From positions 122,116-186,115 of the forward strand of contig CALCLY010000036.1 in NCBI GenBank assembly GCA_937966555.1: a stretch of 64,000 nt of DNA, given 5' to 3'. Position numbers and translations under genes: made by a program. Position 1 is the first letter of the stretch, and every line of letters begins with the position of its first letter. The notes under the pieces are model-generated. The model saw only the letters and a program-made list of their open reading frames with translations, was not told the DNA's origin and searched no databases. Below, piece by piece: positions 18,083 through 41,154 of this stretch. Source of the stretch: an uncultured Clostridia bacterium. GTDB lineage: Bacteria; Bacillota; Clostridia; UMGS1883; UMGS1540.

Positions 18083-18085
18083 AGG

Positions 18086-20026: not shown

Positions 20027-21795
20027 TTGCTTTCACGCTCCTCAAACAATGCTTTAAGCGAAGCAGTGATACTTGCCTCCTGCGAGCTTATAATTTCTGC
20101 GATTTCATCGGAACTTCTCGGAGCCTGATATTTATAAAAATATCTTGTAAAAGGTATTTCATAGCCAACCTTTGTTTTGCTTTTATCTATCCACGCCGCC
20201 GCATTATACGGTTTTACCTCTCTTGCAAAATAGCTGTCTATGTCCTCCACAAGCGGAACGTTTTCATAATCCCGTTTTGAAGTGTCGGGGACAGGCTGGT
20301 TTTTCTTGCCTTTGGTTACGATTTCTCCGTTTTCATCATACAGCGGGCTTTCAATTTGAATACGGTTAAAGCCGAAATCCTCATTATTGAAAATTTTGCT
20401 TTCACACACTTTTCCGTCAAAATCATATTCCTTTGTCCTGTAATCTCCGTAAACCTTAACGATAGCCTCACGGCATTTGTCGGTTATATCGTATCTTTTA
20501 TTTCCGATATTTTTTCTGCGCTGTTCCGCCATTTTGGACGCGTCTATAAGCTGAACCTTGCCCTGCCTATGCAGAGGTTTATTTTTTGAGATTATCCATA
20601 TATATGTTGTAATTCCCGTATTATAAAATACATCTGTTGAAAGCTGAATTATACAGTCGAGCCAGTCATTCTCTATCATATATCGGCGGATTTCGCTTTC
20701 GCCGCTTTCAGCCGCACCGGTAAAAAGCGACGAGCCGTTATGTATAATCGCCATTTTGCCGTCATCTTTCAATTTTGCAATTCCGTTTAAATCAAACAGC
20801 ATTTGCCCGTCGGATATTTTGGGCAAGCCGACGCCGAATCTGCCATTGTCGCCCAGAGCGTGCTCCGCTTCAACCTCTCTTTTTGCGGTTTTCCATTCGA
20901 TACCGAACGGCGGATTTGAGATGATATAATCAAATTTATAATTCGGAAATTTATCATCCGAAAGCGTATTGCCAAGCTTCATATTATCTGCATTGCTGCC
21001 ATGAATAAGCGCAGAGGACTTTGCAATAGCAAATGTTTCGGGATTTAACTCCTGCCCGAATGTTCTTACGTCAGCCTCGGAATCAAGAGCCTTTAACCGC
21101 TCCGTCATACAGGTGAGCATTTGAGAAGTACCCATTGTCATATCATAAACCGTCTTTGCAACGCCTTCTTCAATTAAAAGGTCTTTATCTTCGGAAATAA
21201 GAATATCGGTCATAAGATATATAATATCTCTCGATGTGAAATGCGCTCCGGCTTGTTCGTCATAACTTTCCGAAAATCTCTTTATCAAATCCTCAAAAAT
21301 ATATCCCATATCAACGGAAGTAATTTTATCTGCTCCCATATAGGCACTCGGTTTATTAAACGCCTCTATGACGAGGAATAAAAGACCGTTATTTGCAAGT
21401 TTTTTGATTTCGTTGTCAAATTCGTAATTTTCCAAAATGTCCTGCACATTTTCAGAATATCCCATTATATAATTGCGGAAATTATCTTCAATATGCGTTG
21501 CGTCTTCGGTCAGCTTCCCGAAATCATATTTGCTGATGTTGTAAAATGAGTAGCCGGCGGCACGCTCCAAAAAGCCGGATTTAACTTCAAGGTGTTTTAC
21601 ATTTTCGTATGTTTCCAAAACCTTATCCTTTGTCGGAATAAGGCAGTCGTTAAATCTTTTCAAGACGCAAAACGGCAAAATTACTTTTCCGTATTCGTGC
21701 GGTTTGTAATAATCACGCAACAGGTCAGCAACGCTCCAAATCAAGTTTGATTTTTCCTGTATATTTGTTGTGGTTTGTGTAAGTAATTCTGACAT
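20023..21795 (-). CDS. hsdM: Type I R-M N6-adenine DNA methyltransferase subunit.
   Basis: 590 aa with an HsdM N-terminal domain and the catalytic motif NPPFG (IISNPPFGIEW). Its stop overlaps the hsdS start by 4 bp. Confidence 0.9.
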   Translation of the reverse strand: MSELLTQTTTNIQEKSNLIWSVADLLRDYYKPHEYGKVILPFCVLKRFNDCLIPTKDKVLETYENVKHLEVKSGFLERAAGYSFYNISKYDFGKLTEDATHIEDNFRNYIMGYSENVQDILENYEFDNEIKKLANNGLLFLVIEAFNKPSAYMGADKITSVDMGYIFEDLIKRFSESYDEQAGAHFTSRDIIYLMTDILISEDKDLLIEEGVAKTVYDMTMGTSQMLTCMTERLKALDSEADVRTFGQELNPETFAIAKSSALIHGSNADNMKLGNTLSDDKFPNYKFDYIISNPPFGIEWKTAKREVEAEHALGDNGRFGVGLPKISDGQMLFDLNGIAKLKDDGKMAIIHNGSSLFTGAAESGESEIRRYMIENDWLDCIIQLSTDVFYNTGITTYIWIISKNKPLHRQGKVQLIDASKMAEQRRKNIGNKRYDITDKCREAIVKVYGDYRTKEYDFDGKVCESKIFNNEDFGFNRIQIESPLYDENGEIVTKGKKNQPVPDTSKRDYENVPLVEDIDSYFAREVKPYNAAAWIDKSKTKVGYEIPFTRYFYKYQAPRSSDEIAEIISSQEASITASLKALFEERESK

Positions 21796-21820
21796 TGTAA
21801 ATTTCTCCTTTATTTATAGT

Positions 21821-23209
21821 TTAACGTATCATATCTCCATACTCGACCAAACTAACATTACCCATCTCACTTGCCTTATCTTCACAGCCTTTTGTAAAGC
21901 CTGATTTTGAGAACAGATAATAATATTTAGTTTTGTAATTGAACAGTTCGCTTCGTTTAACAAGTGTTTCCAACACGCCGAGATCGACCTTTTCGTTTGT
22001 CCATTTACATTCCGCAAAAAGGGCAGTGTTTTTGTCCTGCTCGCCCATAATGTCGATTTCTTCCTGACGCTTTTCTTTCGGATTATTGCCCCACCAACGA
22101 CCGAGAGCCGTAAACTCAACAGGGCAGTTGCCGGAAAGGAGCTGTTTCCACAGATACTGTTTACAGATTTCCTCAAAAACCTTGCCCATATAGTCCGAAA
22201 GCTGCGGCTCAATACGCTTATATGCCAAATCTGCGGCGCCGCGGGCGATGATTGAATTATTTTCAAACACGAACCGATACCAAAAGCGGAACATATTATC
22301 TTCAATCGAATAAACCGACTTTCGAGAAGCTTTTTCGCCGTACGGTGTTTCTTTCTGCACAATTCCCAAATTGATCAAATTTTTGAGATACATTGCGCAA
22401 ACATTGGTATCTTCGCCGACCTTGCCCGAAATCTCCGACATTCTCGACGCTCCCGTTGCAATAGCGGCAATTATCGCCGTATAGATTGCCGGTTCTCTGA
22501 CTTCCTGTTTCAAGAGGTTTATCGGCTCTTCATACAAGAATGAAACGGGGTTCAAAAATGTATCTTTGATATTATCCTCAACGCTCAATGCGTCATTAAT
22601 CTGCAATAGATACTGCGGAGTACCGCCGACAACCCCATAGATAAGCGCTTTATCTTCGGCAGTGAAATTTTTGAAGTAGCGGCAGGTTTCCTCAAAGTCG
22701 AACGGCAAAAGTTTTATTTGCGCCGTTCTTCTGCCATAAAGAGGTGCTTTATAGGCGAGAACGTGATCTTCCATATACGACATTGACGAACCGCAGAGAA
22801 TCAGCATCAGCTTTGATTTATCCTTATATTTATCAATCAAAAGTTGCAGGGTAGAGGCAAGACTCTTTGACGAGCGTGCAACATACGGGTATTCGTCGAT
22901 TGCAAGAATGATGCGTTCTTTTTCGGCAAGTCGGAACACATATTCGAGTGCCGATTGAAACGACGAGAATATGCTGTCAATCTCCGTACCGCTGACATAC
23001 TCCATAATGCTCTTTGAAAAATTTTCGAGATTTTGCTTTGCATTACTCTCAACACCCATAAAATAAATAGCATTTTTATCATCAATAAATTTGTTGATAA
23101 GTGCGGTTTTACCCACACGGCGTCTGCCATAGATAACCGCAAATTCAAATTTATCCGATTTGTATAATCTTTCAAGAGCTGAAAGCTCTCGCTGTCTGCC
23201 TATAAACAT
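21821..23209 (-). CDS. AAA-type ATP-binding protein (ATPase + DUF234 architecture).
   Basis: 462 aa with Walker A GRRRVGKT and a Walker B-like ILAIDEYP. It is co-directional with the hsd operon and 25 bp upstream of it. Confidence 0.7.
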   Translation of the reverse strand: MFIGRQRELSALERLYKSDKFEFAVIYGRRRVGKTALINKFIDDKNAIYFMGVESNAKQNLENFSKSIMEYVSGTEIDSIFSSFQSALEYVFRLAEKERIILAIDEYPYVARSSKSLASTLQLLIDKYKDKSKLMLILCGSSMSYMEDHVLAYKAPLYGRRTAQIKLLPFDFEETCRYFKNFTAEDKALIYGVVGGTPQYLLQINDALSVEDNIKDTFLNPVSFLYEEPINLLKQEVREPAIYTAIIAAIATGASRMSEISGKVGEDTNVCAMYLKNLINLGIVQKETPYGEKASRKSVYSIEDNMFRFWYRFVFENNSIIARGAADLAYKRIEPQLSDYMGKVFEEICKQYLWKQLLSGNCPVEFTALGRWWGNNPKEKRQEEIDIMGEQDKNTALFAECKWTNEKVDLGVLETLVKRSELFNYKTKYYYLFSKSGFTKGCEDKASEMGNVSLVEYGDMIR

Positions 23210-24030: not shown

Positions 24031-24245
24031 TCTCGCTCAACTCCTTCCGGGTAAACATATTCGGCAAGCACAAGTTCCTCCGCATAATGCCTTGCAAAAT
24101 TCATACGCCGAACCCATTCCATTTGGTCGGTGCAAGTCGAACCGATGCTTTTTCTGAATTTGCTTATGATGTCATCATAATAGTTTATGACTGCATAGTA
24201 CAGTCCTTTCTTCTCTCGTATAGTTCCTGTTACATTTTTGCTCAA
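24027..24245 (-). CDS. Small hypothetical protein (72 aa).
   Basis: ORF overlapping the downstream gene start by 4 bp. Confidence 0.3.
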   Translation of the reverse strand: MSKNVTGTIREKKGLYYAVINYYDDIISKFRKSIGSTCTDQMEWVRRMNFARHYAEELVLAEYVYPEGVERE

Positions 24246-24336
24246 TTTTTAGACCTCCTTTGTTTTTTGAGAGAAAAAACAAACACCTATCATTGACATT
24301 ACTATTATATCAACAATAGGTACCAAACGCAAAAAA

Positions 24337-24528
24337 TCACGATGTTGTTTTATTTTTTCTCATCAAGAAATCAACTACACTGATTTTTGTTATACAATAC
24401 TCTCGACCGACTTTTATACTTTCGATTTTGTTTTCACGAAGTAATTTATATCCTGTTTTTGTACTTATACCGCCGAGAACTTCGCACATATCTTTAATTT
24501 TCAGCACATCGGGATAATTTTTCATCAT
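24337..24528 (-). CDS. Excisionase-family (Xis/MerR-like) DNA-binding protein.
   Basis: 63 aa. LKIKDMCEVLGGISTKTGYKLLRENKIESIKVGREY is an excisionase-type HTH. Confidence 0.55.
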   Translation of the reverse strand: MMKNYPDVLKIKDMCEVLGGISTKTGYKLLRENKIESIKVGREYCITKISVVDFLMRKNKTTS

Positions 24529-24796
24529 TGAAAGAAGGATGAAGTAGAAGCAAAAACTATCGTCTTGGCGTATCTGCCGCTTGGCTCGTCCATACCGGAA
24601 TGTATCTGTTGCCGTTATACTGCACCGCCGTTATCTTGCGTGCTTTCTTTGTAAAAAATTATATTGCGGTTTTGGGCATTGAAAACTTATTGATGATGTT
24701 GCTCGCAATGTTTTTCTCCGGCTGGTCGAGAGTGTCTATAATTTCAGTAAGCACTCTTTCTTCATCATAGGATAAATACCGGAAAACTCTGTTGTG

Positions 24797-25003
24797 TTAA
24801 GCCTCCATCAAGAATATTCCGCCGTTTACACCGCTTTTTACACGGATGGGAGCGTAACGACCTAAAAAGGTAATATCGTTATATACCGTGTTTTTATGTA
24901 CGGAATACCTTTTTGATAATTCGGACAAAGTAACTTTTTTTGAACTTATTATAAAAAACAGGATTTCTATCCGTCTTTCAAAGGTAGACAATTTACCTGT
25001 CAC
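24797..25003 (-). CDS. Small HTH (HTH_11-like) DNA-binding protein. It probably starts at GTG and is translationally coupled to the upstream basic-protein ORF.
   Basis: GGAGG lies 9 nt upstream of GTG (MTGKLSTFERRIEILFFIISSKKVTLSELSKRYSVHKNTVYNDITFL). Confidence 0.45.
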   Translation of the reverse strand: MTGKLSTFERRIEILFFIISSKKVTLSELSKRYSVHKNTVYNDITFLGRYAPIRVKSGVNGGIFLMEA

Positions 25004-25235
25004 AGCCGTTACACCTCCTTCCAAAAAACATTCTAACATTTAATGTCACAAGCTCATTGTAACTTTCAAAAAATAATTTCATAATTTCACCCTTTTGTGT
25101 AAATTTTGTTGAATTTGCACAAGAGAGAGGCGGAGCACGGCTGTGATACGGTGGCGGTTTTCTGTGATGTTTTCCCGAAGATTTGCGGTTATGTCCTTTA
25201 GGCTTATGCTTTTTGCGCTTTGCTCTGTGCTTCAT
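24993..25235 (-). CDS. Small, highly basic (K/R/H-rich) protein of ~80 aa.
   Basis: MKHRAKRKKHKPKGHNRKSSGKHHRKPPPYH..., with a GGAGG RBS 8 nt upstream. It overlaps the downstream GTG start by 8 nt. Confidence 0.35.
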   Translation of the reverse strand: MKHRAKRKKHKPKGHNRKSSGKHHRKPPPYHSRAPPLSCANSTKFTQKGEIMKLFFESYNELVTLNVRMFFGRRCNGCDR

Positions 25236-25361
25236 AAAGTGTCCTCCGTGCCGCAGGGCATATCCGACAAAAAGCATAATTTTGTCCTATGCAGGGCAAT
25301 TTTTTGTTTATGCGGTAATCGCTTTCGCTTCCTTTGCTTTGTAATATCATATAAAAAGGCA

Positions 25362-25412
25362 CAAAAAAAGCCGCCCGGCAATAAAGGCGTTTTGCCTCTA
25401 TACCGGGCGGCC
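25362..25412 (-). terminator. Rho-independent terminator of the surface-protein gene.
   Basis: Stem gccgcccgg/ccgggcggc, followed on the minus strand by a T7 run. Confidence 0.55.
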
Positions 25413-25469
25413 TGCTGTGCCGTCGTTTGTCCTCATTTTAAGAGAACGGTTTTAATATTAAGCTTTGTT

Positions 25470-28400
25470 TTATTTTAGGTTTTCCAGCACACGCATAAAT
25501 ACCGCGGCTGCCTGCGCTCTTGTCGTATTGGCCTTTGGTGCAAAGCTCCCATCCGTATTACCTGTCATAATGGACTTTTCCGCCGCCCATGTTACAGCGT
25601 CCTTCGCATAGTCTGAAATGTCGCTGTTGTCCATATAGGCTGTGCTGCCGCTTGTCGTTATATCATATCCCTTGAATGTTGCATAGCGATAGATCATTAC
25701 TACCATCTGCTCTCTGGTTATATTATCATTCGGAGCAAATTGATTTTCGGAAATTCCGAAGATTATACCGTTATTGCTTGCCCACGCAACAGCCTTTTCA
25801 TAATAGCTTCCGCTTTCTATGTCAATAAAGGCGGCTGCAGCTGTCTGCGGCTCATTTTCCATTCTGTAAAGAATTGTAACAAACATTGCCCTTGTAATAT
25901 CGCTTTGGGGTGCAAATTCCGTATTTGATACGCCTTTCATCAGACCGTTTTCGTATGCGTATTTCACCGAATCATAAAACCAGTCGTTTTTGTGAATGTC
26001 TGTAAACGGATTTTCCCATTCTGTCGGTTTTGGTGGGTCAACCGGATCAACAGGCTTTTCGTTTTCGTTCCACTTTGCATAAAGCGTAAAGTCCTTTGTA
26101 ACCTTGCTTGCAAAATCATATTTTGCAGTCAATTTTTCATCTGTGTACCAGCCGTCAAAGGTAAAACCTTCTTTTGCAGGAGCAGTCGGCTCTTTAACAA
26201 CACTATTTTTTGTTACGGAAGATGATGTAATTGCGTTTCCGCCGTTTGTTTCAAACTTAACTGTGTAGCGTGTTGTTCCGCCGCCGCCACCGCCGCCGCC
26301 ACCGCCGCCGGACGAATTAACAGTAAAGCGGATTGTCTTATCAATCGTGGTCAAATTGGTGGCTGTTACACGAACTGTTGCGGTGTAAGTGCCTGCGGCC
26401 AAGCCTGTGTTGGGCTTGATGGTGAAAGTTGTGGTGCCGGATGTTGCCAGATTCGTATTAAAACCCGTCTTATCCAGCGTGAAGCTGTCGGCATTGGCTC
26501 CGGTCAGGGTCACATCCAGAGAAGCAAGAGCACCGGTGCCGGTATTGGTGATCGTAAAGGTCTCTGCGGTCTGCTCGCCGTAGCCTACGGTCCGTGCAGC
26601 AAAAGTTTTACCGTCCGGTGTGACTGTTGCCGTATAAGTCAGGGGCACATCGTCTGCCGGGACGGTGACCGTAGTGGTTGCACCTGCAAAGTGTGTATCA
26701 GTTTCCGCTATGCGGACATAGTAGGTGCCTGCGGTAAGTCCGGTGATCTCGGTGCCGGAGCATACAGTACCTGCGGGGCTGGCAAAGTTAGAGTCGGTGC
26801 TGTACTCCATAGCTGTGGTTGTACCGGTTATCTTACCGTCGGAGCCGCCCAAAGTGGTGGGATTCACTCCGTTCAAACCGGTAGGAGCACCGGGACTGTC
26901 AGCCTTTTTAACCGCAGCGGTTGCGGCGCTGGTAAGTGTGCCGGTTTCCTCGCTGCTGGAAATCTCCACGGTGATGGTCGAGCCGATGTCGGCCTTAACC
27001 AGCGTGTAGGTGCTGTTCATTGCGCCGGAGATGTCGGAGCCATCACGCTTCCACTGATAGGACAGCGTGCCGGTATTATTGCCGCTTTCAAGAGATGCTG
27101 TCAGGGTCTGACCGAACTTAGCCGTACCGGTGATCGTGGCTGTGCCGGTCAGGGCGGGGTTCTCCGTCCAGCGCGCGTAATATTCGCTACTTGAATCTGT
27201 ATAAACTGTGTCCAGACTCAACAAAGTGCCGCCGCTTTCTGCTGTATACCACCCGGCAAAGATGTAGTGCTCTTTTGTCGGTGTCGGCACCTGTTCCGCG
27301 GTCAACTTGCCGTCCGTACCGGTAACAAGTTCCACACGATAACTTTCATCTCCGATTTTTCCGCCCTGCGTATAGAAGCCAACGATATATTTTGTAACGC
27401 CGCCGAGAGGACTCATAGAAAACGGAACGCCGTAAGAATATTTCACTTCGTCTATCGTATAGTTAGTATACACAACCCCCGGGTTATTGCCTCCCAAGGT
27501 GACATCTGTTTCATTCAGCTCTGCCAGTGCCAACCCGTCCTGTGCCTTGAAGTATATCCACAGAGTGTATTTAATCCCCGAAATGAACTGTGCAGAAAGC
27601 TTTGTTGCGTCAGAATAACTTCCGCCGGAGTCTGAGTATTGCCACTTATACGTGAATTCTACACCCGCCGTATTGCAGGTGACAACCGCATCCGCAACAT
27701 TTTCTCCCTCCGTATATCCGGTATAGGAAAATGAAACGCTGTCAATCGCTCCCCACAAGGCATATACCGTGGTTGCCTCGCTGAAAACCGTTGTCTCCGT
27801 TATCTTCATTCCTCCGCTTGCTGCGGTATACCATCCGTCGAAGGTGTAGCCCTCCCTTGTCGGAACCGGAAGTGATGCCAATTTACCTTTATCCGCCGCC
27901 GGTATCGTTATTGTATCCGTATCCTTGCCGTTTACCTTGCCGCCGTTTGCATCAAATGTTACATCAATGTCAACGGCGGGCACCCAGCGCGCGTAAAATT
28001 GGTTTCTTGGATCTGTATAAACTGTGTCCAGACTCAACAAAGTGCCGCCGCTTTCTGCTGTATACCACCCGGCAAAGATGTAGTGCTCTTTTGTCGGTGT
28101 CGGCACCTGTTCCGCGGTCAACTTGCCGTCCGTACCGGTAACAAGTTCCACACGATAACTTTCATCTCCGATTTTTCCGCCCTGCGTATAGAAGCCAACG
28201 ATATATTTTGTAACGCCGCCGAGAGGACTCATAGAAAACGGAACGCCGTAAGAATATTTCACTTCGTCTATCGTATAGTTAGTATACACAACCCCCGGGT
28301 TATTGCCTCCCAAGGTGACATCTGTTTCATTCAGCTCTGCCAGTGCCAACCCGTCCTGTGCCTTGAAGTATATCCACAGAGTGTATTTAATCCCCGAAAT

Positions 28401-28664
28401 GAACTGTGCAGAAAGCTTTGTTGCGTCAGAATAACTTCCGCCGGAGTCTGAGTATTGCCACTTATACGTGAATTCTACACCCGCCGTATTGCAGGTGACA
28501 ACCGCATCCGCAACATTTTCTCCCTCCGTATATCCGGTATAGGAAAATGAAACTGCTTCTATCTCTGTTCCCGCCGCACTCGCCGTCACGCCCATGGCGG
28601 GCACGAGGGAAAGCAGCATTGCCAGTGTCAGTAAAACAGAAAAAAATTGTCTTGTCTTTTTCAC
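25470..28664 (-). CDS. Large S-layer-homology (SLH) anchored surface protein with duplicated ~272-aa modules, Flg_new (Listeria-Bacteroides) repeats and a poly-Gly linker.
   Basis: Three C-terminal SLH domains begin at FTDIHKNDWFYDSVKYAYENG, FIDIESGSYYEKAVAWASNNG and YMDNSDISDYAKDAVTWAAEKS. The true start is GTG at 28664 (RBS AAAGGAGGAT 8 nt upstream), giving the signal peptide MKKTRQFFSVLLTLAMLLSLVPAMGVTASA. Confidence 0.85.
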   Translation of the reverse strand: MKKTRQFFSVLLTLAMLLSLVPAMGVTASAAGTEIEAVSFSYTGYTEGENVADAVVTCNTAGVEFTYKWQYSDSGGSYSDATKLSAQFISGIKYTLWIYFKAQDGLALAELNETDVTLGGNNPGVVYTNYTIDEVKYSYGVPFSMSPLGGVTKYIVGFYTQGGKIGDESYRVELVTGTDGKLTAEQVPTPTKEHYIFAGWYTAESGGTLLSLDTVYTDPRNQFYARWVPAVDIDVTFDANGGKVNGKDTDTITIPAADKGKLASLPVPTREGYTFDGWYTAASGGMKITETTVFSEATTVYALWGAIDSVSFSYTGYTEGENVADAVVTCNTAGVEFTYKWQYSDSGGSYSDATKLSAQFISGIKYTLWIYFKAQDGLALAELNETDVTLGGNNPGVVYTNYTIDEVKYSYGVPFSMSPLGGVTKYIVGFYTQGGKIGDESYRVELVTGTDGKLTAEQVPTPTKEHYIFAGWYTAESGGTLLSLDTVYTDSSSEYYARWTENPALTGTATITGTAKFGQTLTASLESGNNTGTLSYQWKRDGSDISGAMNSTYTLVKADIGSTITVEISSSEETGTLTSAATAAVKKADSPGAPTGLNGVNPTTLGGSDGKITGTTTAMEYSTDSNFASPAGTVCSGTEITGLTAGTYYVRIAETDTHFAGATTTVTVPADDVPLTYTATVTPDGKTFAARTVGYGEQTAETFTITNTGTGALASLDVTLTGANADSFTLDKTGFNTNLATSGTTTFTIKPNTGLAAGTYTATVRVTATNLTTIDKTIRFTVNSSGGGGGGGGGGGTTRYTVKFETNGGNAITSSSVTKNSVVKEPTAPAKEGFTFDGWYTDEKLTAKYDFASKVTKDFTLYAKWNENEKPVDPVDPPKPTEWENPFTDIHKNDWFYDSVKYAYENGLMKGVSNTEFAPQSDITRAMFVTILYRMENEPQTAAAAFIDIESGSYYEKAVAWASNNGIIFGISENQFAPNDNITREQMVVMIYRYATFKGYDITTSGSTAYMDNSDISDYAKDAVTWAAEKSIMTGNTDGSFAPKANTTRAQAAAVFMRVLENLK
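26279..26311. repeat. GGC/GGT triplet-repeat tract encoding an 11-residue poly-Gly linker in the SLH protein.
   Basis: ccgccgccaccgccgccgccaccgccgccgg, which is codon GCC/ACC read on the minus strand. It is in-frame slippage-prone. Confidence 0.6.
27195..28553. repeat. Perfect tandem direct duplication inside the SLH gene: 543-bp identical blocks at 27195-27737 and 28011-28553, with a period of 816 bp.
   Basis: Identical 122-aa alternative-frame ORFs (27267..27635 and 27999..28451) and identical DNA were read at an offset of 816 bp. Confidence 0.8.
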
Positions 28665-28692
28665 ATTTATATCCTCCTTTTGATGTGATGTT

Positions 28693-29280
28693 CTACTTGC
28701 CTCCGATATTCCGGCTTGAAATTGCATTACCGCAATACTCGCATTTGCCGGAGCTTCCGGCGCGAATTCTTGTTGTTCCGCTGCATTTTTCACACACAAT
28801 GTTAACAAAGCTTGTTTTACTGCCTTCTCTGCCCGAAAGAATCACGCAGGGCATGCCCTGCTTTTGCAGAGTGCAGTCACAGAATACTCCTTTGCCGAAA
28901 AGCTTCTCAAGCTCGGAAAGTACCTTGAACGGCGGTTTCCCCGATTGCTTTGCAAGCTCGTCAATTGTCACCATGCCGTCAGCATCACACATAAAGATTG
29001 AGTTGTAGCGATATGCAAGACCTGCCCTTCTGCCGTTTTTAATCCCGTTTAACAAAAGCAATCCGGACGGAACAACCATGACTATATTGGTAATCAAGTT
29101 ATCGCGAAGCTCTTCGTTATACCCGGTAACCCCGGAAATAATTCCAAACAGAAAAACCGCCGTGAAGAATCCGCCTATAATCATTTGTATGTGCTTTTTT
29201 AATGTAAGCCTTGCAATTGCCACTTTTGAAATATATGTTCCGCCACCCGAAAAGATTGTTTGATTCGTCTTCATTTTCAC
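28693..29280 (-). CDS. Membrane protein (2-3 TM) with a C-terminal CxxC...CxxC zinc ribbon.
   Basis: 195 aa with C-terminal CEKCSGTTRIRAGSSGKCEYCG. It lies 29 bp upstream of the SLH gene start. Confidence 0.5.
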   Translation of the reverse strand: MKMKTNQTIFSGGGTYISKVAIARLTLKKHIQMIIGGFFTAVFLFGIISGVTGYNEELRDNLITNIVMVVPSGLLLLNGIKNGRRAGLAYRYNSIFMCDADGMVTIDELAKQSGKPPFKVLSELEKLFGKGVFCDCTLQKQGMPCVILSGREGSKTSFVNIVCEKCSGTTRIRAGSSGKCEYCGNAISSRNIGGK

Positions 29281-30125
29281 TGCCTCCGAAATGCCATCAT
29301 TCCCACTCCGATGATTGCAAGCAATATACCGGTTACTATGCCGAAAATCGAGCCGCCGCGCACTCCTTTTTTGTTCTCCCCGGCAAATTCTTCTGCTGTC
29401 ATAATTCCCTTAACGGTTGTAACCGAATCCACATCCTCGGCTTCTATCAGGGTATCGCCTTTTTGTACGCCGACAATCGTATATTCGAGCGGATCGTCGG
29501 GCGAAACGATGCCGTAGGATATTTTTTGAGATCCGTATCCCGTCGATGAGTACATACCTGTTGATTTTTTCGGCAGCCAATTTTCTTTTGAAACGCAGTA
29601 GCTGCTTTCTCTTCCGCCCGAAAGCACCTTCCAGCCCGCATTGAGGCTCTTCTCGTCATATTGCGTAAATTCGGTGTTTCTTATAAGCGGATTGAGCAGC
29701 TTGCTTTCCACCTTAAATTCTCCGAGTAGGGTAGGTGCGGCGAGCATGGTTGATGTAAGTATCTCGGCGTTTATTCCAAAATTCGCCTTTTCGCTGTAGT
29801 CTGTATTCTCCGGATACCAGTCCCACACTTTTTCATCACCGCTGCCGGTATCCTGTTTATAAGTCCAAACCGTTCTTTTCGCCGTTACTCCGGGAAGCTT
29901 AACGCCCGTTATGGGATCCTGAAGCTGTTCGGCAGGTTTAAGAGTTCCCGAAACAACCACAAGCTTTCCCTCGTTTTCGGGAGTAAGCTTGCCGTCTTTA
30001 ATCGTTGGCGCAGCTTTGATTTTCTCATAGGACTGCGGTGCTGACACAAGAGCTTTTATGGCAAGCGAAGCAAAGAGCAAGCCTCCTATAATCAGTATAA
30101 CGCCGATTATTTTTTTCATAGTCAT
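29277..30125 (-). CDS. Bitopic membrane protein with N- and C-terminal TM helices and a large extracytoplasmic domain.
   Basis: 282 aa. Its stop overlaps the downstream start by 4 bp. Confidence 0.5.
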   Translation of the reverse strand: MTMKKIIGVILIIGGLLFASLAIKALVSAPQSYEKIKAAPTIKDGKLTPENEGKLVVVSGTLKPAEQLQDPITGVKLPGVTAKRTVWTYKQDTGSGDEKVWDWYPENTDYSEKANFGINAEILTSTMLAAPTLLGEFKVESKLLNPLIRNTEFTQYDEKSLNAGWKVLSGGRESSYCVSKENWLPKKSTGMYSSTGYGSQKISYGIVSPDDPLEYTIVGVQKGDTLIEAEDVDSVTTVKGIMTAEEFAGENKKGVRGGSIFGIVTGILLAIIGVGMMAFRRQ

Positions 30126-30140
30126 TCCTCCGTTCTGTAG

Positions 30141-31313
30141 CTATTCAAGCTTATTCGCCTGATTTTTATATTCGTCCTGTATAAATTTCGCGTCCTTGTC
30201 GCTAAGTGCGTTTATAACCGTGCCGAGTGCGTCAAACTGCGCTCTTGTGCAGTGCACCGCAACAGGTTTGCAGGCATATCCGCGCGTCATACGTCCTAAA
30301 TTTTCGTTTTTTACAAGTCCGAGCATAACTTCATAAAGCTCATCCGTATTGAAATAGGTTGCTTTTGCCTTCCATGCGTCATAGTTCTCCTCGGATTTGT
30401 TGATAAAGCTTGTTACGGCTGCCCATGCGGGAACTTTGTCGCTGCCCGGTGTGGTTTTAAAGTAGTCCATCGTGGCTCTGTATGCCGCCTCGCTTGTGTT
30501 TTCGTGTGACGGATAATCATACCACAGCCAAACAAGACCTTTTACACCGCTTGAATGAAGGTCTGCGTCAGCCTCGTTTTTCAGCATTTCCGAGATAGGC
30601 GCAACCACCCTGTCATCACCGAGGAGACCGGCATACTCATACGCTGCCTTCCGAACATCGTTATCCGAATCTTTCATCAGCTCGATTTCCGCATCAACCG
30701 CTCCGTTAAGAGTCTTGTTCCATGTGCTTCCGAGAGCAACCGCCGCCTGCCTTCTTACAACTGCGTTTTCATTCTTTGCCGCATCAAGCAGGAATTTGCC
30801 GATTTCTGCATCCTTGCCGCCTTCATTTCCAAGAGCTTTTACCGCACATTTAATAACATAAGGCTCTTTTTCGGTTTTCAGAATCTCCTTTGCCGACGCT
30901 TTATGCGAATCACTTACCCCGAAAAATGTGGCGATGTTTGAAAAAGCATAGCCTCTTACCTGCGGTGCATCGCTTTTTAAAAGAGGCTCAACAAATTCCT
31001 TTGCCGCAGGGAGTGTTGCCTTGTTATCCTTAAGCTTTTTGATTGCTTTGTCTGTTATATTTTCATCAAGCTCAAGCTTATTGTTGATTGTTGCATATGA
31101 ATATGTGGAAGCAAGATTTACAAATTCGTCCAAGGTTATATTCTGCTCATCTTTAATAAACTCTTTTATCAGATCGTCCTCTGTCATATTTGCGTAGTCA
31201 ATCTTTTTGGTTTCCTGCTTTGTTTCGGTTTCTTTTCCGGTATTTTCACCGCCGCACGCAGCGAGCGAAAATACCATTCCTACAGCTAAAATGAACGCTA
31301 ATATTTTTTTCAT
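30141..31313 (-). CDS. Lipoprotein with HEAT-like (PBS-lyase-type) repeats.
   Basis: Lipobox LAACGG after the signal peptide. Repeats resemble PQVRGYAFSNIA, VRRQAAVALGS and NDVRKAAYEYAG. Confidence 0.55.
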   Translation of the reverse strand: MKKILAFILAVGMVFSLAACGGENTGKETETKQETKKIDYANMTEDDLIKEFIKDEQNITLDEFVNLASTYSYATINNKLELDENITDKAIKKLKDNKATLPAAKEFVEPLLKSDAPQVRGYAFSNIATFFGVSDSHKASAKEILKTEKEPYVIKCAVKALGNEGGKDAEIGKFLLDAAKNENAVVRRQAAVALGSTWNKTLNGAVDAEIELMKDSDNDVRKAAYEYAGLLGDDRVVAPISEMLKNEADADLHSSGVKGLVWLWYDYPSHENTSEAAYRATMDYFKTTPGSDKVPAWAAVTSFINKSEENYDAWKAKATYFNTDELYEVMLGLVKNENLGRMTRGYACKPVAVHCTRAQFDALGTVINALSDKDAKFIQDEYKNQANKLE

Positions 31314-31337
31314 AATATAAAATTCCTCCTGATTCTT

Positions 31338-32663
31338 TTATTGTTTATCATTATCGTCAAATATGTCGCCGCATTCAGGGCAGAATTTCGGCGGATTTTT
31401 GGGATCTTCAGGCTCCCAGCCGCATTTATCGCATTTATAGGTCGGTGCGCCCGCAGGTTTCGGATTCCCACAGTTTTGGCAGAACCTACCCTTGTTGACC
31501 GTTCCGCACGAACACGTCCAGCCGTCGGGCGATGCCTGCGGTTTTCCGCAATTCATACAGAATTTCCCGGTATTGCCCGTCTGACCGCATTCACAGCTCC
31601 AGCCTGCCGCTTGAGGCTGCTGTGCCTGCTGCTGAGACTGCTGTTGCTGCTGACCCATCGCAAAAAGATTGCCCGCATTCATACCGCCTGCATTCTGCGC
31701 CATACTCATTCCGAAAAAGCCGCCCATTGCGCCCATTCCGCCTTCGTTTGCCGCTGCCGTTCTCATAGCGTCTGTCTGCCCGCCGACTATGCGCGCCGCC
31801 GCAATATTCGGATTGGTTGTCATAACGTTTTCTTCCCATTCGGTAATCTTTTTTCTCTGGTCATCCGGGATAGATACACCGTTAATGCTTACGGCAAAGA
31901 GCTCGATTCCGCGCTTTTCCTTCCACTCAACTTTAAGCTCCTCGGAAAGAGCCTTTGTAACCTCTTTTGTATGTGCAGGAATTTCCGAATACATTATTTT
32001 CATTGCCGAAATCTGCGCAAATGCCGGTCTCAGAGCGTCCAAAAGCTCACTCTTTAACATTTCGTCAATTTCCGAACGGCTGTATACATATTCCACATTA
32101 CCGCTTACGTTTGTATAAAACATAACAGGGTCGGCTATTTTATAGGAATACACACCGTTACACCTTAAATCCACCGACAGCTTATAGTTCATCGATTCAT
32201 CTATAGTCACCCTGAATGGCACGGGAGAGGAGGTGCCGAATTTATTGCCGGTAATTTCCTTTGTGTTGAAATAATAAACCCTCTGATCCTTGCCCGGTTC
32301 GCCGCCGAAAGTAAAACGCTTGCCTACCTGCTGAAAGCTTTGTTTAATGCTTTCGCCTAAGTTGCCGCAAAAAATGCTCGGCTCGGTTGAATTATCATAA
32401 ACAAACTCACCCGCCTCGGCGCAAAATTCAACAATTTTGCCCGATTCCACGATAATCATGCTCTGTCCTTCGTTTACCGAAATGATAGAACCGTTTGAAA
32501 TAATGTTGTCGTCTCCCTTTTTGTTGGAGCTTCTTTTTCCCACTCGTTTTTCACCTTTTGCCACAAGTGTGTCGGCATCTAAACTTTCGCAGTAGAAAAA
32601 TTCTCTCCACTGGTCAGCCAAAACACCGCCAAGAGCGCCTGCGCCCGCTTTTAAAAGTCCCAT
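31338..32663 (-). CDS. SPFH/band-7 (flotillin-like, YdjI-type) protein with a Gln-rich linker and four C-terminal zinc-ribbon motifs.
   Basis: 441 aa. The four ribbons are WSCECGQTGNTGKFCMNCG, WTCSCGTVNKGRFCQNCG, YKCDKCGW and FCPECG. The body resembles the B. subtilis YdjI class. Confidence 0.65.
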   Translation of the reverse strand: MGLLKAGAGALGGVLADQWREFFYCESLDADTLVAKGEKRVGKRSSNKKGDDNIISNGSIISVNEGQSMIIVESGKIVEFCAEAGEFVYDNSTEPSIFCGNLGESIKQSFQQVGKRFTFGGEPGKDQRVYYFNTKEITGNKFGTSSPVPFRVTIDESMNYKLSVDLRCNGVYSYKIADPVMFYTNVSGNVEYVYSRSEIDEMLKSELLDALRPAFAQISAMKIMYSEIPAHTKEVTKALSEELKVEWKEKRGIELFAVSINGVSIPDDQRKKITEWEENVMTTNPNIAAARIVGGQTDAMRTAAANEGGMGAMGGFFGMSMAQNAGGMNAGNLFAMGQQQQQSQQQAQQPQAAGWSCECGQTGNTGKFCMNCGKPQASPDGWTCSCGTVNKGRFCQNCGNPKPAGAPTYKCDKCGWEPEDPKNPPKFCPECGDIFDDNDKQ

Positions 32664-32687
32664 AATTCTGTTCTCCTCTCAAAATTT

Positions 32688-33236
32688 TTATTCTTTATAG
32701 TCTGTTATATCCCATATATCGGGTGTACATATCAGCCTGCCGTTTTCATCCGTATCAAGCGTGATTTTGTGTCCGCCGCGTATGACGATATAAATTTCAA
32801 CATTGCCGCCGCAGTTTATTATATACGGTGTGCCGTCATCTGCTTTTTGCAAATTTTTCTTATCGCCGTTTTGAATCAGCTCGTTTTCCTCTCCGTACCG
32901 CGGAATAACAAGATACCATTTTTCTCCGCCGTAATCATAATGACTGATTGCCCGGCGTTTTTCCTCGGAAAGCTCCGAAAAAAGCTTTTCTATATATTCA
33001 TTTGCCGTATTTTTGCCGGTTTCTCCCTCTCCGAGATATGCGACCGCCCAATAGGGATAGTCCTCGATTTCATCGAACGGAAGAGTATTTGCGTATTCTG
33101 TACGATGCTCACTGTCAACATACACCATGCCCGGTCCGTCCAGTATAAAAGGGTTTTCTCCGGGAGCCCTGCATCCGAAAAGACCGGCAATAACCGTAAA
33201 TATCGCAATTGCTTTCATCAGCCTTACCTTAATCAC
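32688..33236 (-). CDS. Putative lipoprotein (182 aa).
   Basis: Signal peptide plus Cys (IAGLFGCRAPG). Confidence 0.5.
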   Translation of the reverse strand: MIKVRLMKAIAIFTVIAGLFGCRAPGENPFILDGPGMVYVDSEHRTEYANTLPFDEIEDYPYWAVAYLGEGETGKNTANEYIEKLFSELSEEKRRAISHYDYGGEKWYLVIPRYGEENELIQNGDKKNLQKADDGTPYIINCGGNVEIYIVIRGGHKITLDTDENGRLICTPDIWDITDYKE

Positions 33237-34426
33237 CCTTTCGGCAATTCAATTCGCATATCGTAGCAAAGAATTCTCGAAATAAGAGCCGCCGCTTCAC
33301 TGCGTTTTACCTGTGAATCCGGATAGAACGCCATGTATTCATTGCTTCCCACTGCGATCCCTTTATTATAAAGATCCAAAATTTCATATGCGAAGGGCGT
33401 TGTGTCATAAACGTCCGGAATATCGGTTATCGGAACATCGTTTATAAAATACGGATTGACGTCGCACCGTGAAAACAGATATGCCATCTGTGCACGCGTT
33501 GCGTTTTTCTCCCAATCGAAGATAATATGATCTTCAAGTATTGCTTTGTCATAGCAATAATCCACATAAACATCATACCAGTTTTCACCGGTCATTTGGA
33601 ATTCAACTTCCTCTCCTTCGTATTGGCTTTTCTTGTGAATTACCGCGGCAATTTTGGCTGCCTCCGCGCAGGTAAGCCCTGCATTCGGGTCAAATTCTCT
33701 TTTGTTTTTCCCGTTTAAGATGCCAAAGCTGTACGCCGTCTGCACATAAGAATAGTACCATGCGTCCGGCGATATGTCCGCAAACGGCAGAGAGGTATTC
33801 TCCAGATATTTGCTTCCTTTAAAACCACAGTCCTCGCAGTATATCATGTTTTCACCGAAAATACCCTTTTCCGTCATACTCTCAACAAGCGCAGTATGCA
33901 TAAGTGAAAAACTAAAATTCCCGTCACCCTTTGCATCGGATATTTTTTCGTACATCACATGCTCATCTGCCGTGCACGGGATATAAAATTGTATAAATCC
34001 GGTTCCGGCAAACACATCAAAATCAAACGTTATTTCCTCTGAATTCAATGTAACCTCATTAAGATTTGCGCAGTTGGCAAAAGCGCGCTCACCAATATTT
34101 TTCACACTTGACGGAATATATGCACTTTCGGCATTGCAGCCTTCAAATGCATTTGTGTTTATCAATTCAATTCCTTCAGCAACGGATATGGCTTCAAGTC
34201 CTAAGTCAAAACAAGCCATAACACCGATTTCATTGATTTTTGTTCCGTCTATTTCTGCCGGGAAAAAGGCAAATTCATCACCGTAATAAGCGGTAATTAC
34301 TCCATCCTTTGTGTATTCATACATACCGTCTGCCGATTTGAATGTTTCCCATTCCGCACTGACAACAGTGCTGCTTAAGATCAGCAGTGCTGCAAGCAAT
34401 AACGATAGTTTTTTCACGTTTTGCAC
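33233..34426 (-). CDS. Secreted protein with BspA-type leucine-rich repeats and SLH-like C-terminal domains.
   Basis: The LRR block reads NAFEGCNAESAYIPSSVKNIGERAFANCANLNEVTL. The SLH-like segment is SPDAWYYSYVQTAYSFGILNG...LTCAEAAKIAAVI. Confidence 0.6.
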   Translation of the reverse strand: MQNVKKLSLLLAALLILSSTVVSAEWETFKSADGMYEYTKDGVITAYYGDEFAFFPAEIDGTKINEIGVMACFDLGLEAISVAEGIELINTNAFEGCNAESAYIPSSVKNIGERAFANCANLNEVTLNSEEITFDFDVFAGTGFIQFYIPCTADEHVMYEKISDAKGDGNFSFSLMHTALVESMTEKGIFGENMIYCEDCGFKGSKYLENTSLPFADISPDAWYYSYVQTAYSFGILNGKNKREFDPNAGLTCAEAAKIAAVIHKKSQYEGEEVEFQMTGENWYDVYVDYCYDKAILEDHIIFDWEKNATRAQMAYLFSRCDVNPYFINDVPITDIPDVYDTTPFAYEILDLYNKGIAVGSNEYMAFYPDSQVKRSEAAALISRILCYDMRIELPKG

Positions 34427-34432
34427 CTCCCG

Positions 34433-35302: not shown

Positions 35303-35320
35303 TTTTCAACCTCCAATGAT

Positions 35321-36100: not shown

Positions 36101-36113
36101 GCCTGCCGCCTCC

Positions 36114-37193: not shown

Positions 37194-37263
37194 TGTTTCC
37201 CTCCTTTTTGCCCGGCCGCTCCCCGTGTCCGTTTTCGGGCAGGGGAGCGGCTGACACTTTTGC

Positions 37264-37653
37264 CTATGCCTTGTTTTTTGCCGCTCCGATTATGTATAAA
37301 ATCGGAACAATCAAACCCGAGGCATAACTCATGATATTGAATTTGCTGCCGACTACGTTTGACATAACGTTTCCGGCTACGCTGAGCAGAGCCACAATAA
37401 CGCCCATAACAAGGCACGCCTGTGCCTTTTCCGGCTTCTCGCAGTTTTTCACGCCCATAATCCCCGCTATCAGCTGGAACACGGCGCCGGCGAGAATAAG
37501 AACACTTGCAAGCGTCAGAGTACCCGTGCTTGTGTCAAGCAGCGCCGCCATTGTTGCCACACTGACAAGAGCGACAATACCTCCGATGATACCGAACGCG
37601 CTGCCGATAATCATCAGAATTCCCGTGACCTTCAAAAATTGCTTTCCTTTCAT
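37264..37653 (-). CDS. Small polytopic membrane protein (4 TM).
   Basis: 129 aa, hydrophobic throughout. Confidence 0.5.
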   Translation of the reverse strand: MKGKQFLKVTGILMIIGSAFGIIGGIVALVSVATMAALLDTSTGTLTLASVLILAGAVFQLIAGIMGVKNCEKPEKAQACLVMGVIVALLSVAGNVMSNVVGSKFNIMSYASGLIVPILYIIGAAKNKA

Positions 37654-37712
37654 ACCGAACCTCCTTTAAAAAATATTTATATCTGTTTTTTCAAAAAGAT
37701 ATGACAAACGTG

Positions 37713-41033: not shown

Positions 41034-41154
41034 ACAATTCAGCTCCTTTTTTCTTTCGGCGCGCGGCAGCTGCCGCGCTCCTACTGCTTTTTTTATGATT
41101 GTTTCTCCGTCGGCCGGGCCGCAAAATGCCGTAAGCCCGACTTGCATATTGGTT

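What the first reader, a model, noticed from the sequence alone, without database searches (positions are those of the whole stretch)
27195..28553. Perfect 816-bp-period tandem duplication (543 bp at 100% identity) inside the SLH surface-protein gene, plus a GGC triplet tract
Two identical 543-bp blocks (27195-27737 and 28011-28553) duplicate a ~272-aa module of the surface protein. Perfect identity implies a very recent duplication or ongoing gene conversion. Such repeats allow RecA-mediated expansion and contraction of surface-module number, a form of antigenic or length variation.

Separately, 26279-26311 is a (GGC/GGT)11 tract encoding a Gly11 linker, which can change length in-frame by slippage. 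Assemblers often collapse or mis-size such repeats.
Basis: seen in the sequence. Interest (0 to 1): 0.5.

Follow-up and report, generated by a model that had tools for sequence, protein, structure and literature searches.

The report
Repeated head module in surface protein
A cell-surface protein gene of an uncultured human-gut Clostridia bacterium carries two identical 543-bp copies of its outermost module; comparison with other strains indicates an old duplication whose copies recombine with each other and are sometimes reduced to one, a familiar behaviour of bacterial surface proteins.

Summary
Window 27195-27737 and 28011-28553 are 543/543 identical, 816 bp apart. Both lie in one minus-strand gene (25470-28664, 1064 aa): signal peptide, A-X-A head, Ig-like domains, Gly11 linker, three SLH anchor domains.

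It is not a strict tandem duplication. Only 181 aa (A) is repeated, and the 273-bp spacer X is unique.

It is not a recent duplication. A-X-A occurs in orthologues whose copies differ at 0 to 15 of 543 sites, and in genes with other anchors whose copies differ by up to 30 of 190 residues.

Substitutions between strains are mostly paired in both copies, and A copies are heavily mosaic. This fits repeated gene conversion.

Alleles lacking exactly A+X (816 bp, in frame) recur in many assemblies, including MEGAHIT contigs, so recombinational contraction looks real. No three-copy allele was seen.

The Gly tract varies from 6 to 16 codons among orthologues.

The main caveat is that the window is a short-read metagenome scaffold. 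An assembler could have collapsed a few real differences between the copies. The closest scaffold differs only by the same four SNPs in both copies.

This is a new member of a known kind (variable-repeat, "Periscope"-like surface proteins). Interest is modest.

The parts
25470..28664 (-). Surface-protein gene, 1064 aa plus stop. It starts at GTG 28664 behind the ribosome-binding site AAAGGAGG (28673-28680). The signal peptide is about aa 1-30 (28575-28664). The product is identical to database protein P0123.
   Evidence: Pfam finds 4 Flg_new and 3 SLH stretches. NCBIfam finds TIGR02543 repeats.
28011..28553 (-). Copy A1 (aa 38-218), the N-terminal copy. It consists of a roughly 115-aa domain with no family-library match plus one Flg_new (InlB B-repeat type) domain.
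27738..28010 (-). Spacer X (aa 219-309), a separate Flg_new domain present once. Its first 27 nt (27984-28010) are the degenerate tail of the A homology.
27195..27737 (-). Copy A2 (aa 310-490), 543/543 identical to A1.
27168..27194 (-). Degenerate tail of A2 (encodes ...SSSEYYARW). It has 5 mismatches in 27 nt against the A1 tail and marks the end of the homogenised tract.
26277..26309 (-). Gly11 linker, (GGC/GGT/GGA)x11 with 9- and 12-nt sub-periods. It sits between the ectodomains and the last Flg_new plus SLH anchor. Its length differs between orthologues (6 to 16 codons).
25473..26009 (-). Three SLH domains forming the cell-wall anchor.
   Evidence: coordinates derived from residue positions.
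25372..25389 (-). Terminator-like hairpin followed by a T-run, about 80 nt after the stop codon.
   Evidence: This is a consensus match only.
24177..24528 (-). Remnants of an integrative element just downstream. There is a 63-aa ORF that looks excisionase/HTH-like on inspection (24337-24528, not scanned) and the first 23 codons of a tyrosine integrase (24177-24245). That integrase is intact (440 aa) downstream of the same gene in isolate MSJd-27.

Best explanation
The two 543-bp blocks are the two copies of an old intragenic duplication in the N-terminal, probably outermost, part of an SLH-anchored surface protein. The layout is signal peptide, then A, then X, then A. A consists of a rare all-beta domain plus a Flg_new domain. 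X is another Flg_new domain.

The copies lie 273 bp apart in direct orientation and are at least 97% alike in every orthologous strain examined, so they recombine with each other. Non-reciprocal exchange (gene conversion) repeatedly overwrites part or all of one copy with the other. In this strain the whole 543 bp is homogenised.

Reciprocal recombination between A1 and A2 removes one A plus X (816 bp, 272 codons, in frame). This gives a shorter 789-797-aa protein with a single head module. Both forms coexist in human gut populations.

The single-copy form has no internal repeat, so it cannot re-expand on its own. This makes the variation a population polymorphism rather than a reversible switch.

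The (GGC)n linker changes length independently by slippage, always in frame.

Shown here: the repeat itself, its age, paired substitutions, mosaicism, the exact 816-bp deletion alleles and the linker length polymorphism. Inferred: the recombination mechanism (RecA-type homologous recombination), surface exposure of the head, and any selective benefit.
For: 1. The repeat is exact.

2. The duplication is old. Two copies at a 272-273-aa period occur in 34 of 43 related proteins that carry the module, with SLH, dockerin or Cu_amine_oxidN1 C-termini. Their copies differ at 0-30 of 190 residues.

3. Orthologous loci show 0 (window), 2 (L075), 10 (L001), 10 (L002) and 15 (L003, cultured isolate MSJd-27) differences per 543 nt. 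Identical runs between copies span 147-570 nt across the two-copy loci; in L001-L003 they are the central stretch (147-384 nt). Copy-specific sites cluster at A positions 10, 410-486 and 544-557.

4. Evolution is concerted.
- P0122 versus the window protein has 7 substitutions in A1 and the same 7 in A2 at offset 272.
- P0131/L077 versus the window shows the only 8 differences in 9195 bp to be 4 SNPs in A1 and the same 4 in A2.
- The mean within-protein A1-A2 distance is 9.3 per 190 residues. The A1-A2 distance between proteins is 16.4 and A1-A1 is 11.4.

5. The copies are mosaic. 440 of 903 site pairs show all four combinations, and the minimum number of recombination events is at least 19 across 71 distinct copies.

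6. Contraction occurs.
- Alleles at the same locus with the same upstream genes lack exactly 816 bp.
- These are L004, P0121 on 5 contigs from 5 samples including MEGAHIT k141 contigs, P0126, and P0127 on a 246-kb contig.
- The same 272-273-aa difference separates P0034 from P0008 and P0040 from P0009.
- An independent contig collection gave 10 single-copy loci and 2 complete two-copy loci.
- The single copy in L078 is identical over 543 nt to the A2 copy of L002. This fits a deletion that keeps the Y-proximal copy type.

7. The Gly tract is 6, 7, 8, 10, 11, 14 or 16 codons long among orthologues with otherwise identical flanks.
Against: - All close relatives except one isolate are short-read metagenome assemblies. 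Bubble collapsing in de Bruijn-graph assemblers can make near-identical repeats look identical, and strain-mixture chimeras can mimic mosaicism.
- The L076/L077 pair (no other difference in 9.2 kb, both scaffold names carry the same XXXXnn-n_sample_METAG-scaffold format) is explained equally well if both genomes have A1 differing from A2 at 4 sites and the assembler chose a different variant each time.
- No reads were available to test this.
- No allele with more than 2 copies was found, so expansion is not demonstrated.
- Nothing here shows the protein is expressed, surface exposed or under immune or phage selection.
Confidence: 0.75

Rival explanations
1. The identity is an assembly product. 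The real genome has two A copies that differ at a few sites (for example the 4-SNP patch at A positions 402-486). The short-read assembler merged the variants and then wrote the same consensus into both copies.
For: - The window is 100% identical to an ENA metagenome scaffold, XIEH16-1_SAMEA3449348_METAG-scaffold_11.
- The 543-bp repeat is longer than the reads and k-mers typical of such short-read assemblies (own knowledge).
- A scaffold from another sample whose name has the same format differs only by the same 4 SNPs in both copies, with nothing else in 9195 bp.
- In many relatives exactly this patch (IFA..E versus TFD..A) distinguishes A1 from A2.
- Several contigs break inside A, which shows that assemblers struggle here.
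Against: - Perfect or near-perfect copy pairs recur in other samples and pipelines: L084 (SPAdes) and L085 with 570/570 identical, and L075 with a 531-nt identical run.
- The same assemblers resolve 10-18 differences in other strains.
- Lineage-specific changes spread along the whole module, including a 1-aa insertion present in both copies of P0009, cannot come from collapsing a few bubbles.
- This rival affects only the last few differences, not the existence of two copies at least 99% alike.
Confidence: 0.3
2. A very recent duplication in this strain, with no time yet for divergence.
For: There are zero differences in 543 bp.
Against: - The same A-X-A layout with the same junctions exists in orthologues with up to 15 differences, in a monkey-gut isolate, and in genes at other loci.
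- A simple tandem duplication with an 816-bp period would copy X too, but X is unique.
- The 27-nt tails of the two copies already differ at 5 sites.
Confidence: 0.03
3. A dedicated, programmed variation system such as a diversity-generating retroelement, site-specific recombinase switching or silent-cassette antigenic variation, in which one A copy acts as donor and the other as acceptor.
For: - A copies form a mosaic pool with many dimorphic sites.
- The A-X-A part is 2-3% divergent between orthologues with pN about equal to pS, while the rest of the gene is 0-0.6% divergent.
- A 1.5-kb head cassette is shared at 97.75% identity with a dockerin gene at an unrelated locus, which could act as a donor.
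- Integrase and excisionase remnants lie downstream.
Against: - Differences between copies are not adenine-specific. In L003 only 5 of 15 differing sites have A in one copy and 3 in the other.
- No reverse transcriptase or invertase was found among the neighbouring ORFs scanned.
- Both copies are translated parts of one protein, not silent cassettes.
- Ordinary homologous recombination explains everything seen.
Confidence: 0.05

Closest known systems
Periscope Proteins (SasG/Aap, Rib/alpha C, Sgo_0707, Esp, CdrA); Whelan et al. 2021, PMC8201768
   Same: These are surface-anchored proteins containing long domain repeats (more than 50 aa) that are nearly identical at the DNA level. Repeat number differs between closely related strains, and the paper attributes this to intragenic homologous recombination. 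Here the protein is SLH-anchored, has a 181-aa repeat at 100% identity, and occurs as 1-copy and 2-copy alleles.
   Different: - Periscope repeats form a contiguous tandem array of many units. That array acts as a stalk under a distinct N-terminal functional domain.
- Here there are at most two copies, separated by a unique domain.
- The copies sit at the extreme N-terminus directly after the signal peptide, so the repeat is the head rather than the stalk.
- The single-copy state cannot re-expand.
Concerted evolution and ectopic recombination of cell-surface adhesin repeats (for example yeast FLO genes, PMC3512402; variable tandem repeats review, PMC3899988)
   Same: Recombination between repeats inside and between surface-protein genes produces chimeric alleles and length variants. 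The paired substitutions and mosaic A copies seen here show the same pattern. Both papers were seen only as title and abstract in a search listing.
   Different: Those systems are eukaryotic, with many short repeats. Here two long domain-sized repeats sit in a bacterial gene.
Clostridioides difficile CwpV and S-layer cassette variation (own knowledge, not tested here)
   Same: A Clostridia cell-wall protein family has one conserved part and strain-specific alternative parts exchanged by recombination. Here SLH-type and Cu_amine_oxidN1-type C-terminal halves are alternative alleles at one locus.
   Different: CwpV has a conserved anchor and a variable repeat region, and it is switched on and off by a site-specific recombinase. 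Here the head is conserved, the anchor is swapped, and no switch was found.
InlB B-repeat / Flg_new (PF09479, TIGR02543) repeat proteins
   Same: The protein contains four Flg_new domains above Pfam and NCBIfam thresholds.
   Different: It is not an internalin. The internalin models score far below their cutoffs (54-56 bits against 1050-1600), and there is no LRR domain.

Membership tests
Periscope Proteins (Whelan et al. 2021) | Bacterial cell-surface protein | tested here: met
   The protein has a signal-peptide-like N-terminus and three C-terminal SLH domains (E = 1.7e-34). Surface location is inferred from these domains and has not been shown experimentally.
Periscope Proteins (Whelan et al. 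2021) | Repeats longer than 50 residues with at least 80% identity (the detection rule in the paper) | tested here: met
   The repeat is 181 aa at 100% identity.
Periscope Proteins (Whelan et al. 2021) | Repeat number varies between related strains | tested here: met
   One-copy and two-copy alleles occur at the same locus. All data come from short-read assemblies; the MEGAHIT contigs support the one-copy form.
Periscope Proteins (Whelan et al. 2021) | Contiguous tandem array forming a stalk that projects a separate N-terminal functional domain | tested here: not met
   The copies are separated by a unique 91-aa domain and begin 8 residues after the predicted signal-peptide cleavage site. No domain lies N-terminal to them. 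The rod-like shape could not be tested because the AlphaFold model was unusable (pLDDT 46).
SLH-anchored cell-wall proteins | SLH domains above the Pfam gathering score | tested here: met
   PF00395 scores 118 bits against a cutoff of 20.8, in three stretches.
Flg_new / TIGR02543 (Listeria-Bacteroides repeat) proteins | Repeat domains above curated cutoffs | tested here: met
   PF09479 scores 156.9 bits against 27, in four stretches. TIGR02543 scores 71.9 against 20.95.
Class 1 internalins | Whole-protein score above the NCBIfam cutoff, and an LRR domain | tested here: not met
   The internalin_A and internalin_H models score 54-56 bits against cutoffs of 1600 and 1050. There is no LRR hit.
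Diversity-generating retroelement target | Template and variable repeats differing only at adenines of the template, with a linked reverse transcriptase | tested here: not met
   Differences between A1 and A2 involve all base types. No reverse transcriptase was found among the neighbouring ORFs scanned.
Simple-sequence contingency locus (on/off phase variation) | Repeat whose length change shifts the reading frame or promoter spacing | tested here: not met
   The Gly tract is a triplet repeat inside the ORF. All observed lengths (6 to 16 codons) keep the frame, so it changes linker length and not expression.

The most novel reading that the evidence does not exclude
The 1.5-kb segment covering the signal-peptide core and A-X-A may be an exchangeable 'head' cassette. 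It is found at about 98% nucleotide identity on genes with unrelated flanks and three different attachment modules: SLH, Cu_amine_oxidN1 and dockerin. Combined with gene conversion between A copies, within and between genes, it would reshuffle a limited pool of dimorphic residues. That would amount to an active combinatorial surface-variation system in a human-gut commensal Clostridia, located next to integrative-element DNA, rather than a passive record of past recombination.
Probability: 0.2. Interest if true: 0.55.

Novelty: new member of a known kind. Interest (0 to 1): 0.3.

Why it matters
The gene shows that variable-repeat behaviour, well known in surface proteins of Gram-positive pathogens, also operates in an uncultured commensal Clostridia lineage found in human gut metagenome contigs labelled XIEH16, VISC19, LIUW16, Hadza and Nepal.

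It also gives a concrete, testable example of how short-read metagenome assemblies may overstate repeat identity.

The repeat marks a locus where strain-level differences in cell-surface display are concentrated. These include one or two head modules, a 6-16 Gly linker, and alternative anchors. Such differences are the kind that could affect adhesion, phage adsorption or immune (IgA) recognition; none of these was tested.

The finding does not reveal a new mechanism.

Tried and rejected
- **Structure of module A.** AlphaFold2 on a shallow 12-sequence alignment gave mean pLDDT 46 and an all-beta model. This was too poor for a fold search, so none was run.
- **Sequence search of the 117-aa A domain against PDB.** Only chance-level hits were found, with E at least 0.18.
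- **Exhaustive HMMER search of the A domain.** Only 45 of 1.84 billion representatives scored E below 1e-3. Six clear relatives all belong to this family. A few weak full-length matches are similar domains in other surface proteins, read on inspection as clostridial-type. No functional annotation was obtained.
- **Exact look-up of the protein.** It first failed because my start codon was one codon too early. After correction to GTG 28664, the protein equals P0123.
- **Viral contigs.** No match to a conserved 38-mer of A, so there is no sign the module is phage-borne.
- **Assembler behind the METAG-scaffold names.** I checked whether these are SPIRE/MEGAHIT contigs, which could not contain a 543-bp exact repeat. 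The SPIRE paper uses MEGAHIT, but I could not establish that these scaffolds come from that pipeline. The assembler remains unknown.
- **Promoter and terminator scans inside the repeat.** Results were at chance level.
- **Recent tandem duplication, DGR and on/off contingency locus.** Considered and rejected; see the rival explanations and membership tests.
Full report
**1. Observation**

Window 27195-27737 and 28011-28553 are identical at all 543 positions, 816 nt apart. The repeat finder reports the same pair. A 50-mer from the block occurs exactly twice in the 64-kb window, where shuffles expect none. Identity at offset 816 drops to background within about 30 nt on both sides.

On the gene's 3' side the homology continues for 27 nt with 5 mismatches (27168-27194 versus 27984-28010). 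The homologous unit is therefore 570 nt, or 190 aa, ending in ...YARW. The 273 nt between the copies (27738-28010) has no second copy. The structure is therefore A-X-A, not a head-to-tail duplication of an 816-bp unit.

**2. The gene**

Both copies lie in one minus-strand ORF. The real start is GTG at 28664, 8 nt after AAAGGAGG. The stop codon ends at 25470, giving 1064 aa. The product is identical to database protein P0123.

The order of parts is as follows:
- a signal peptide of about 30 aa;
- A1 (aa 38-218);
- X (aa 219-309);
- A2 (aa 310-490);
- Ig-like repeats carrying a 'YQWKRDG' motif, read by eye from the translation;
- a weak 'choice-of-anchor D'-like region (below the NCBIfam cutoff);
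- the Gly11 linker (codons at window 26277-26309);
- a fourth Flg_new domain;
- three SLH domains.

Each A consists of a roughly 115-aa domain with no Pfam, NCBIfam or PDB sequence match followed by a Flg_new domain. X is another Flg_new domain.

The A domain is rare. In an exhaustive search of 1.84 billion representatives, only 45 proteins scored E below 1e-3. The six clear hits are all this family. A few weak full-length hits are similar domains, often in tandem, in other surface proteins that look clostridial on inspection. AlphaFold gave an all-beta but unreliable model (pLDDT 46).

**3. Provenance**

The window is 100% identical over 9195 bp to ENA metagenome scaffold XIEH16-1_SAMEA3449348_METAG-scaffold_11, which is 358 kb long. 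It is therefore a short-read human-gut metagenome assembly.

Relatives come from gut metagenome contigs whose names carry VISC19, LIUW16, MERR22, Hadza and Nepal labels. There is one cultured isolate, Acetivibrio sp. MSJd-27, proposed as 'Taichongia intestinisimiae' and obtained from monkey faeces.

**4. Age of the duplication**

Among 43 related proteins that carry the module, 34 have two copies at a 272-273-aa period and 9 have one. Two-copy proteins occur with SLH, Cu_amine_oxidN1 and dockerin C-termini. Their copies differ at 0 to 30 of 190 residues.

In orthologous SLH genes the two 543-nt copies differ at these numbers of sites:

| Locus | Differences per 543 nt |
|---|---|
| Window | 0 |
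| L075 | 2 |
| L001 | 10 |
| L002 | 10 |
| L003 (isolate) | 15 |

The duplication therefore predates these lineages. A recent duplication is excluded.

**5. Concerted evolution**

Differences between strains are mostly paired. P0122 differs from the window protein by 7 substitutions in A1 and the same 7 in A2, each pair 272 residues apart.

L077, a scaffold from another sample whose name has the same format, differs from the window at only 8 of 9195 nt. These are 4 SNPs in A1 (gene positions 513, 587, 593, 597) and the same 4 in A2.

Across 36 two-copy proteins (the window protein plus 35 database proteins), the mean distances per 190 residues are as follows:

| Comparison | Mean differences |
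|---|---|
| A1 vs A2, same protein | 9.3 |
| A1 vs A2, different proteins | 16.4 |
| A1 vs A1, different proteins | 11.4 |

For 27 of 72 copies the partner copy in the same protein is a nearest neighbour.

The copies form a mosaic of a limited set of dimorphic residues. All four combinations occur for 440 of 903 site pairs, and the minimum number of recombination events is at least 19.

Differences between copies cluster at A positions 10, 410-486 and 544-557. Identical runs between copies range from 147 to 570 nt across the two-copy loci; in L001, L002 and L003 the identical stretch is central (312, 384 and 147 nt). This pattern is as expected for conversion tracts. Fully identical pairs recur in L084 and L085 (570 of 570).

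**6. Contraction**

Alleles at the same locus, with the same upstream genes, lack exactly 816 bp in frame:
- L004;
- P0121, found on five contigs from five samples and at least three naming or assembly schemes, including two MEGAHIT k141 contigs;
- P0126, and P0127 on a 246-kb contig.

The MEGAHIT contigs matter for this argument. From my own knowledge of de Bruijn-graph assembly, a unitig cannot run through A into Y if an X branch of equal depth exists, so X is probably absent in those samples.

The same 272-273-aa difference separates P0034 from P0008 and P0040 from P0009. An independent scan of another contig collection gave the following:

| Layout | Loci |
|---|---|
| SP-A-Y (single copy) | 10 |
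| SP-A-X-A-Y (complete two-copy) | 2 |
| Partial two-copy | 4 |
| Contig broken inside A | 5 |

The single copy in L078 is identical over 543 nt to the A2 copy of L002. This fits loss of A1 plus X by recombination.

No allele with three copies was seen. Short reads could not resolve one, however. The single-copy allele has lost its repeat, so contraction is irreversible without an outside donor.

**7. The Gly tract**

Orthologues with identical flanking sequence carry 6, 7, 8, 10, 11, 14 or 16 Gly codons, built from GGC-GGC-GGT and GGC-GGC-GGC-GGT units. One 16-codon tract carries an internal Cys codon. All lengths keep the reading frame. This is linker-length polymorphism, not an on/off switch.

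**8. The main caveat**

The window is a short-read assembly, and the 543-bp repeat exceeds the reads and k-mers typical of such assemblies (own knowledge). Graph simplification can merge variants of near-identical repeats and then write one consensus into both copies.

The L076/L077 comparison has no other difference in 9.2 kb. It fits two opposite conversion events. It fits equally well a single true sequence with a 4-site difference between copies that was collapsed differently in the two assemblies. In many relatives exactly this patch (IFA..E versus TFD..A) distinguishes A1 from A2.

I could not identify the assembler. SPIRE uses MEGAHIT, but these scaffolds could not be tied to that pipeline.

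The caveat concerns only the last few differences. Three observations rest on many assemblies and one isolate:
- lineage-specific changes spread over the whole module, including a one-residue insertion present in both copies of P0009;
- the resolved 10-18 differences between copies in other strains;
- the deletion alleles.

**9. Comparison with known systems**

The closest named class is the Periscope Proteins (PMC8201768). These are surface proteins with long repeats nearly identical at the DNA level, whose number varies between strains through intragenic recombination.

This gene shares the surface location, the repeat identity and the copy-number variation. It fails the architectural criterion. 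It has only two copies, separated by a unique domain, at the extreme N-terminus with nothing to project. I therefore describe it as working like a Periscope-type variable repeat without filing it as a typical member.

It is a Flg_new/TIGR02543 and SLH protein by curated thresholds. It is not an internalin. It does not show a DGR pattern.

**10. Wider context, beyond the finding**

- Among orthologues the A-X-A part is 2-3% divergent with pN about equal to pS. The remaining 1.7 kb of the gene is 0-0.6% divergent, except for the last 807 nt in L075 (about 6% synonymous, 1% non-synonymous).
- The gene is 98% identical between strains whose flanks are 94% (L001, L075) or 88% (L004) identical. In the isolate it sits in a different context, with integrase genes on both sides and an NlpC/P60-like hydrolase upstream, the latter two read from the translations rather than scanned.
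- A Cu_amine_oxidN1-type protein (P0034) occupies the same chromosomal locus as an alternative allele. Homology runs through gene position about 1796 and resumes just after the stop codon.
- A dockerin-type gene at an unrelated locus shares only a 1511-bp cassette (window 27121-28631) at 97.75% identity.

These points suggest that the head is an exchangeable cassette. Whether that exchange is an active diversification process is open. I give it about 20%.

**11. Verdict**

The 'recent tandem duplication' reading is not. The perfect identity itself needs read-level confirmation. This is a new member of a known kind, with interest about 0.3.

Noticed in passing
window 25470-26870 (3' half of the gene) compared with L083 6496-9819: In MEGAHIT contig L083 the same chromosomal locus, with the same six upstream genes, carries a 1107-aa protein. 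It has the same signal peptide, a single A and the same Ig-like start, but a YDG/MBG_2/Cu_amine_oxidN1 C-terminal part instead of SLH. DNA homology ends near gene position 1796 and resumes for about 500 bp after the stop codon. The anchor half therefore behaves as an allelic replacement cassette.
   Followed up: partly
window 27121-28631 compared with L087 5419-6929: A dockerin-type gene (P0026) at an unrelated locus (zinc-ribbon gene, 179-aa ORF, the gene, then a 1205-aa PG_binding_1 protein) shares only this 1511-bp signal-peptide-core plus A-X-A cassette with the window, at 97.75% nucleotide identity. The flanks are unrelated. I could not test whether both genes occur in one genome.
   Followed up: partly
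window 24177-25470; L003 1-6000 and 10821-12143: Downstream of the gene lie remnants of an integrative element: a 63-aa ORF that looks excisionase-like on inspection, the first 23 codons of a tyrosine integrase, and ORFs annotated HTH_36 and DUF6017 in the identical locus L076. In isolate MSJd-27 the same gene (97% protein identity) has that integrase intact downstream. Upstream it has another integrase-like ORF and an NlpC/P60-like hydrolase (both read by eye from the translations), with no synteny to the window's upstream genes.
   Followed up: partly
window about 26000 (composition); flanks in L001, L075 and L004: G+C is 45-52% from about 26000 to 46000 and 37-42% to the left of about 26000. 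The gene is 98% identical between strains whose upstream flanks are only 94% or 88% identical. This suggests the gene has moved between backgrounds more recently than its neighbours diverged.
   Followed up: partly
window 27195-28553 compared with the rest of the gene: Among orthologues the A-X-A region has 2-3% divergence with non-synonymous and synonymous rates about equal. The middle 885 nt is almost invariant. The last 807 nt are also almost invariant, except in L075, where they show about 6% synonymous and 1% non-synonymous divergence. A1-versus-A2 differences are mostly non-synonymous: 30 non-synonymous against 7 synonymous, summed over four loci that are not independent.
   Followed up: partly
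window 33233-45135, minus strand: The gene lies in a cluster of putative surface proteins. These are an LRR_5 plus SLH protein (33233-34426), a 1144-aa protein with a Flg_new domain (37713-41147), and a 1326-aa ORF with no Pfam hit (41155-45135). Between them and the gene are zinc-ribbon, Band_7/SPFH, HEAT-repeat and TMEM43-like genes.
   Followed up: partly
window 15050-23209, minus strand: There is an ORF with type I restriction R-subunit domains (HSDR_N, T1R_D3-like, SWI2/SNF2-type ATPase; 15050-18082), followed by two large unscanned ORFs (18086-21795). A 462-aa ATPase_2/DUF234 protein with a weak Mrr-like nuclease match lies at 21821-23209.
   Followed up: no
window 31602-31652: Tandem Repeats Finder reports a 21-nt-period tandem repeat of 2.4 copies inside the Band_7/SPFH gene (31338-32663). 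It was not examined.
   Followed up: no
L089, L090, L093, L097, L101 (contig ends inside A); partial proteins P0125, P0130, P0134: Many public contigs and predicted proteins of this family end inside or at the edge of the A module. This family is therefore systematically fragmented and probably mis-sized in short-read metagenome catalogues.
   Followed up: partly
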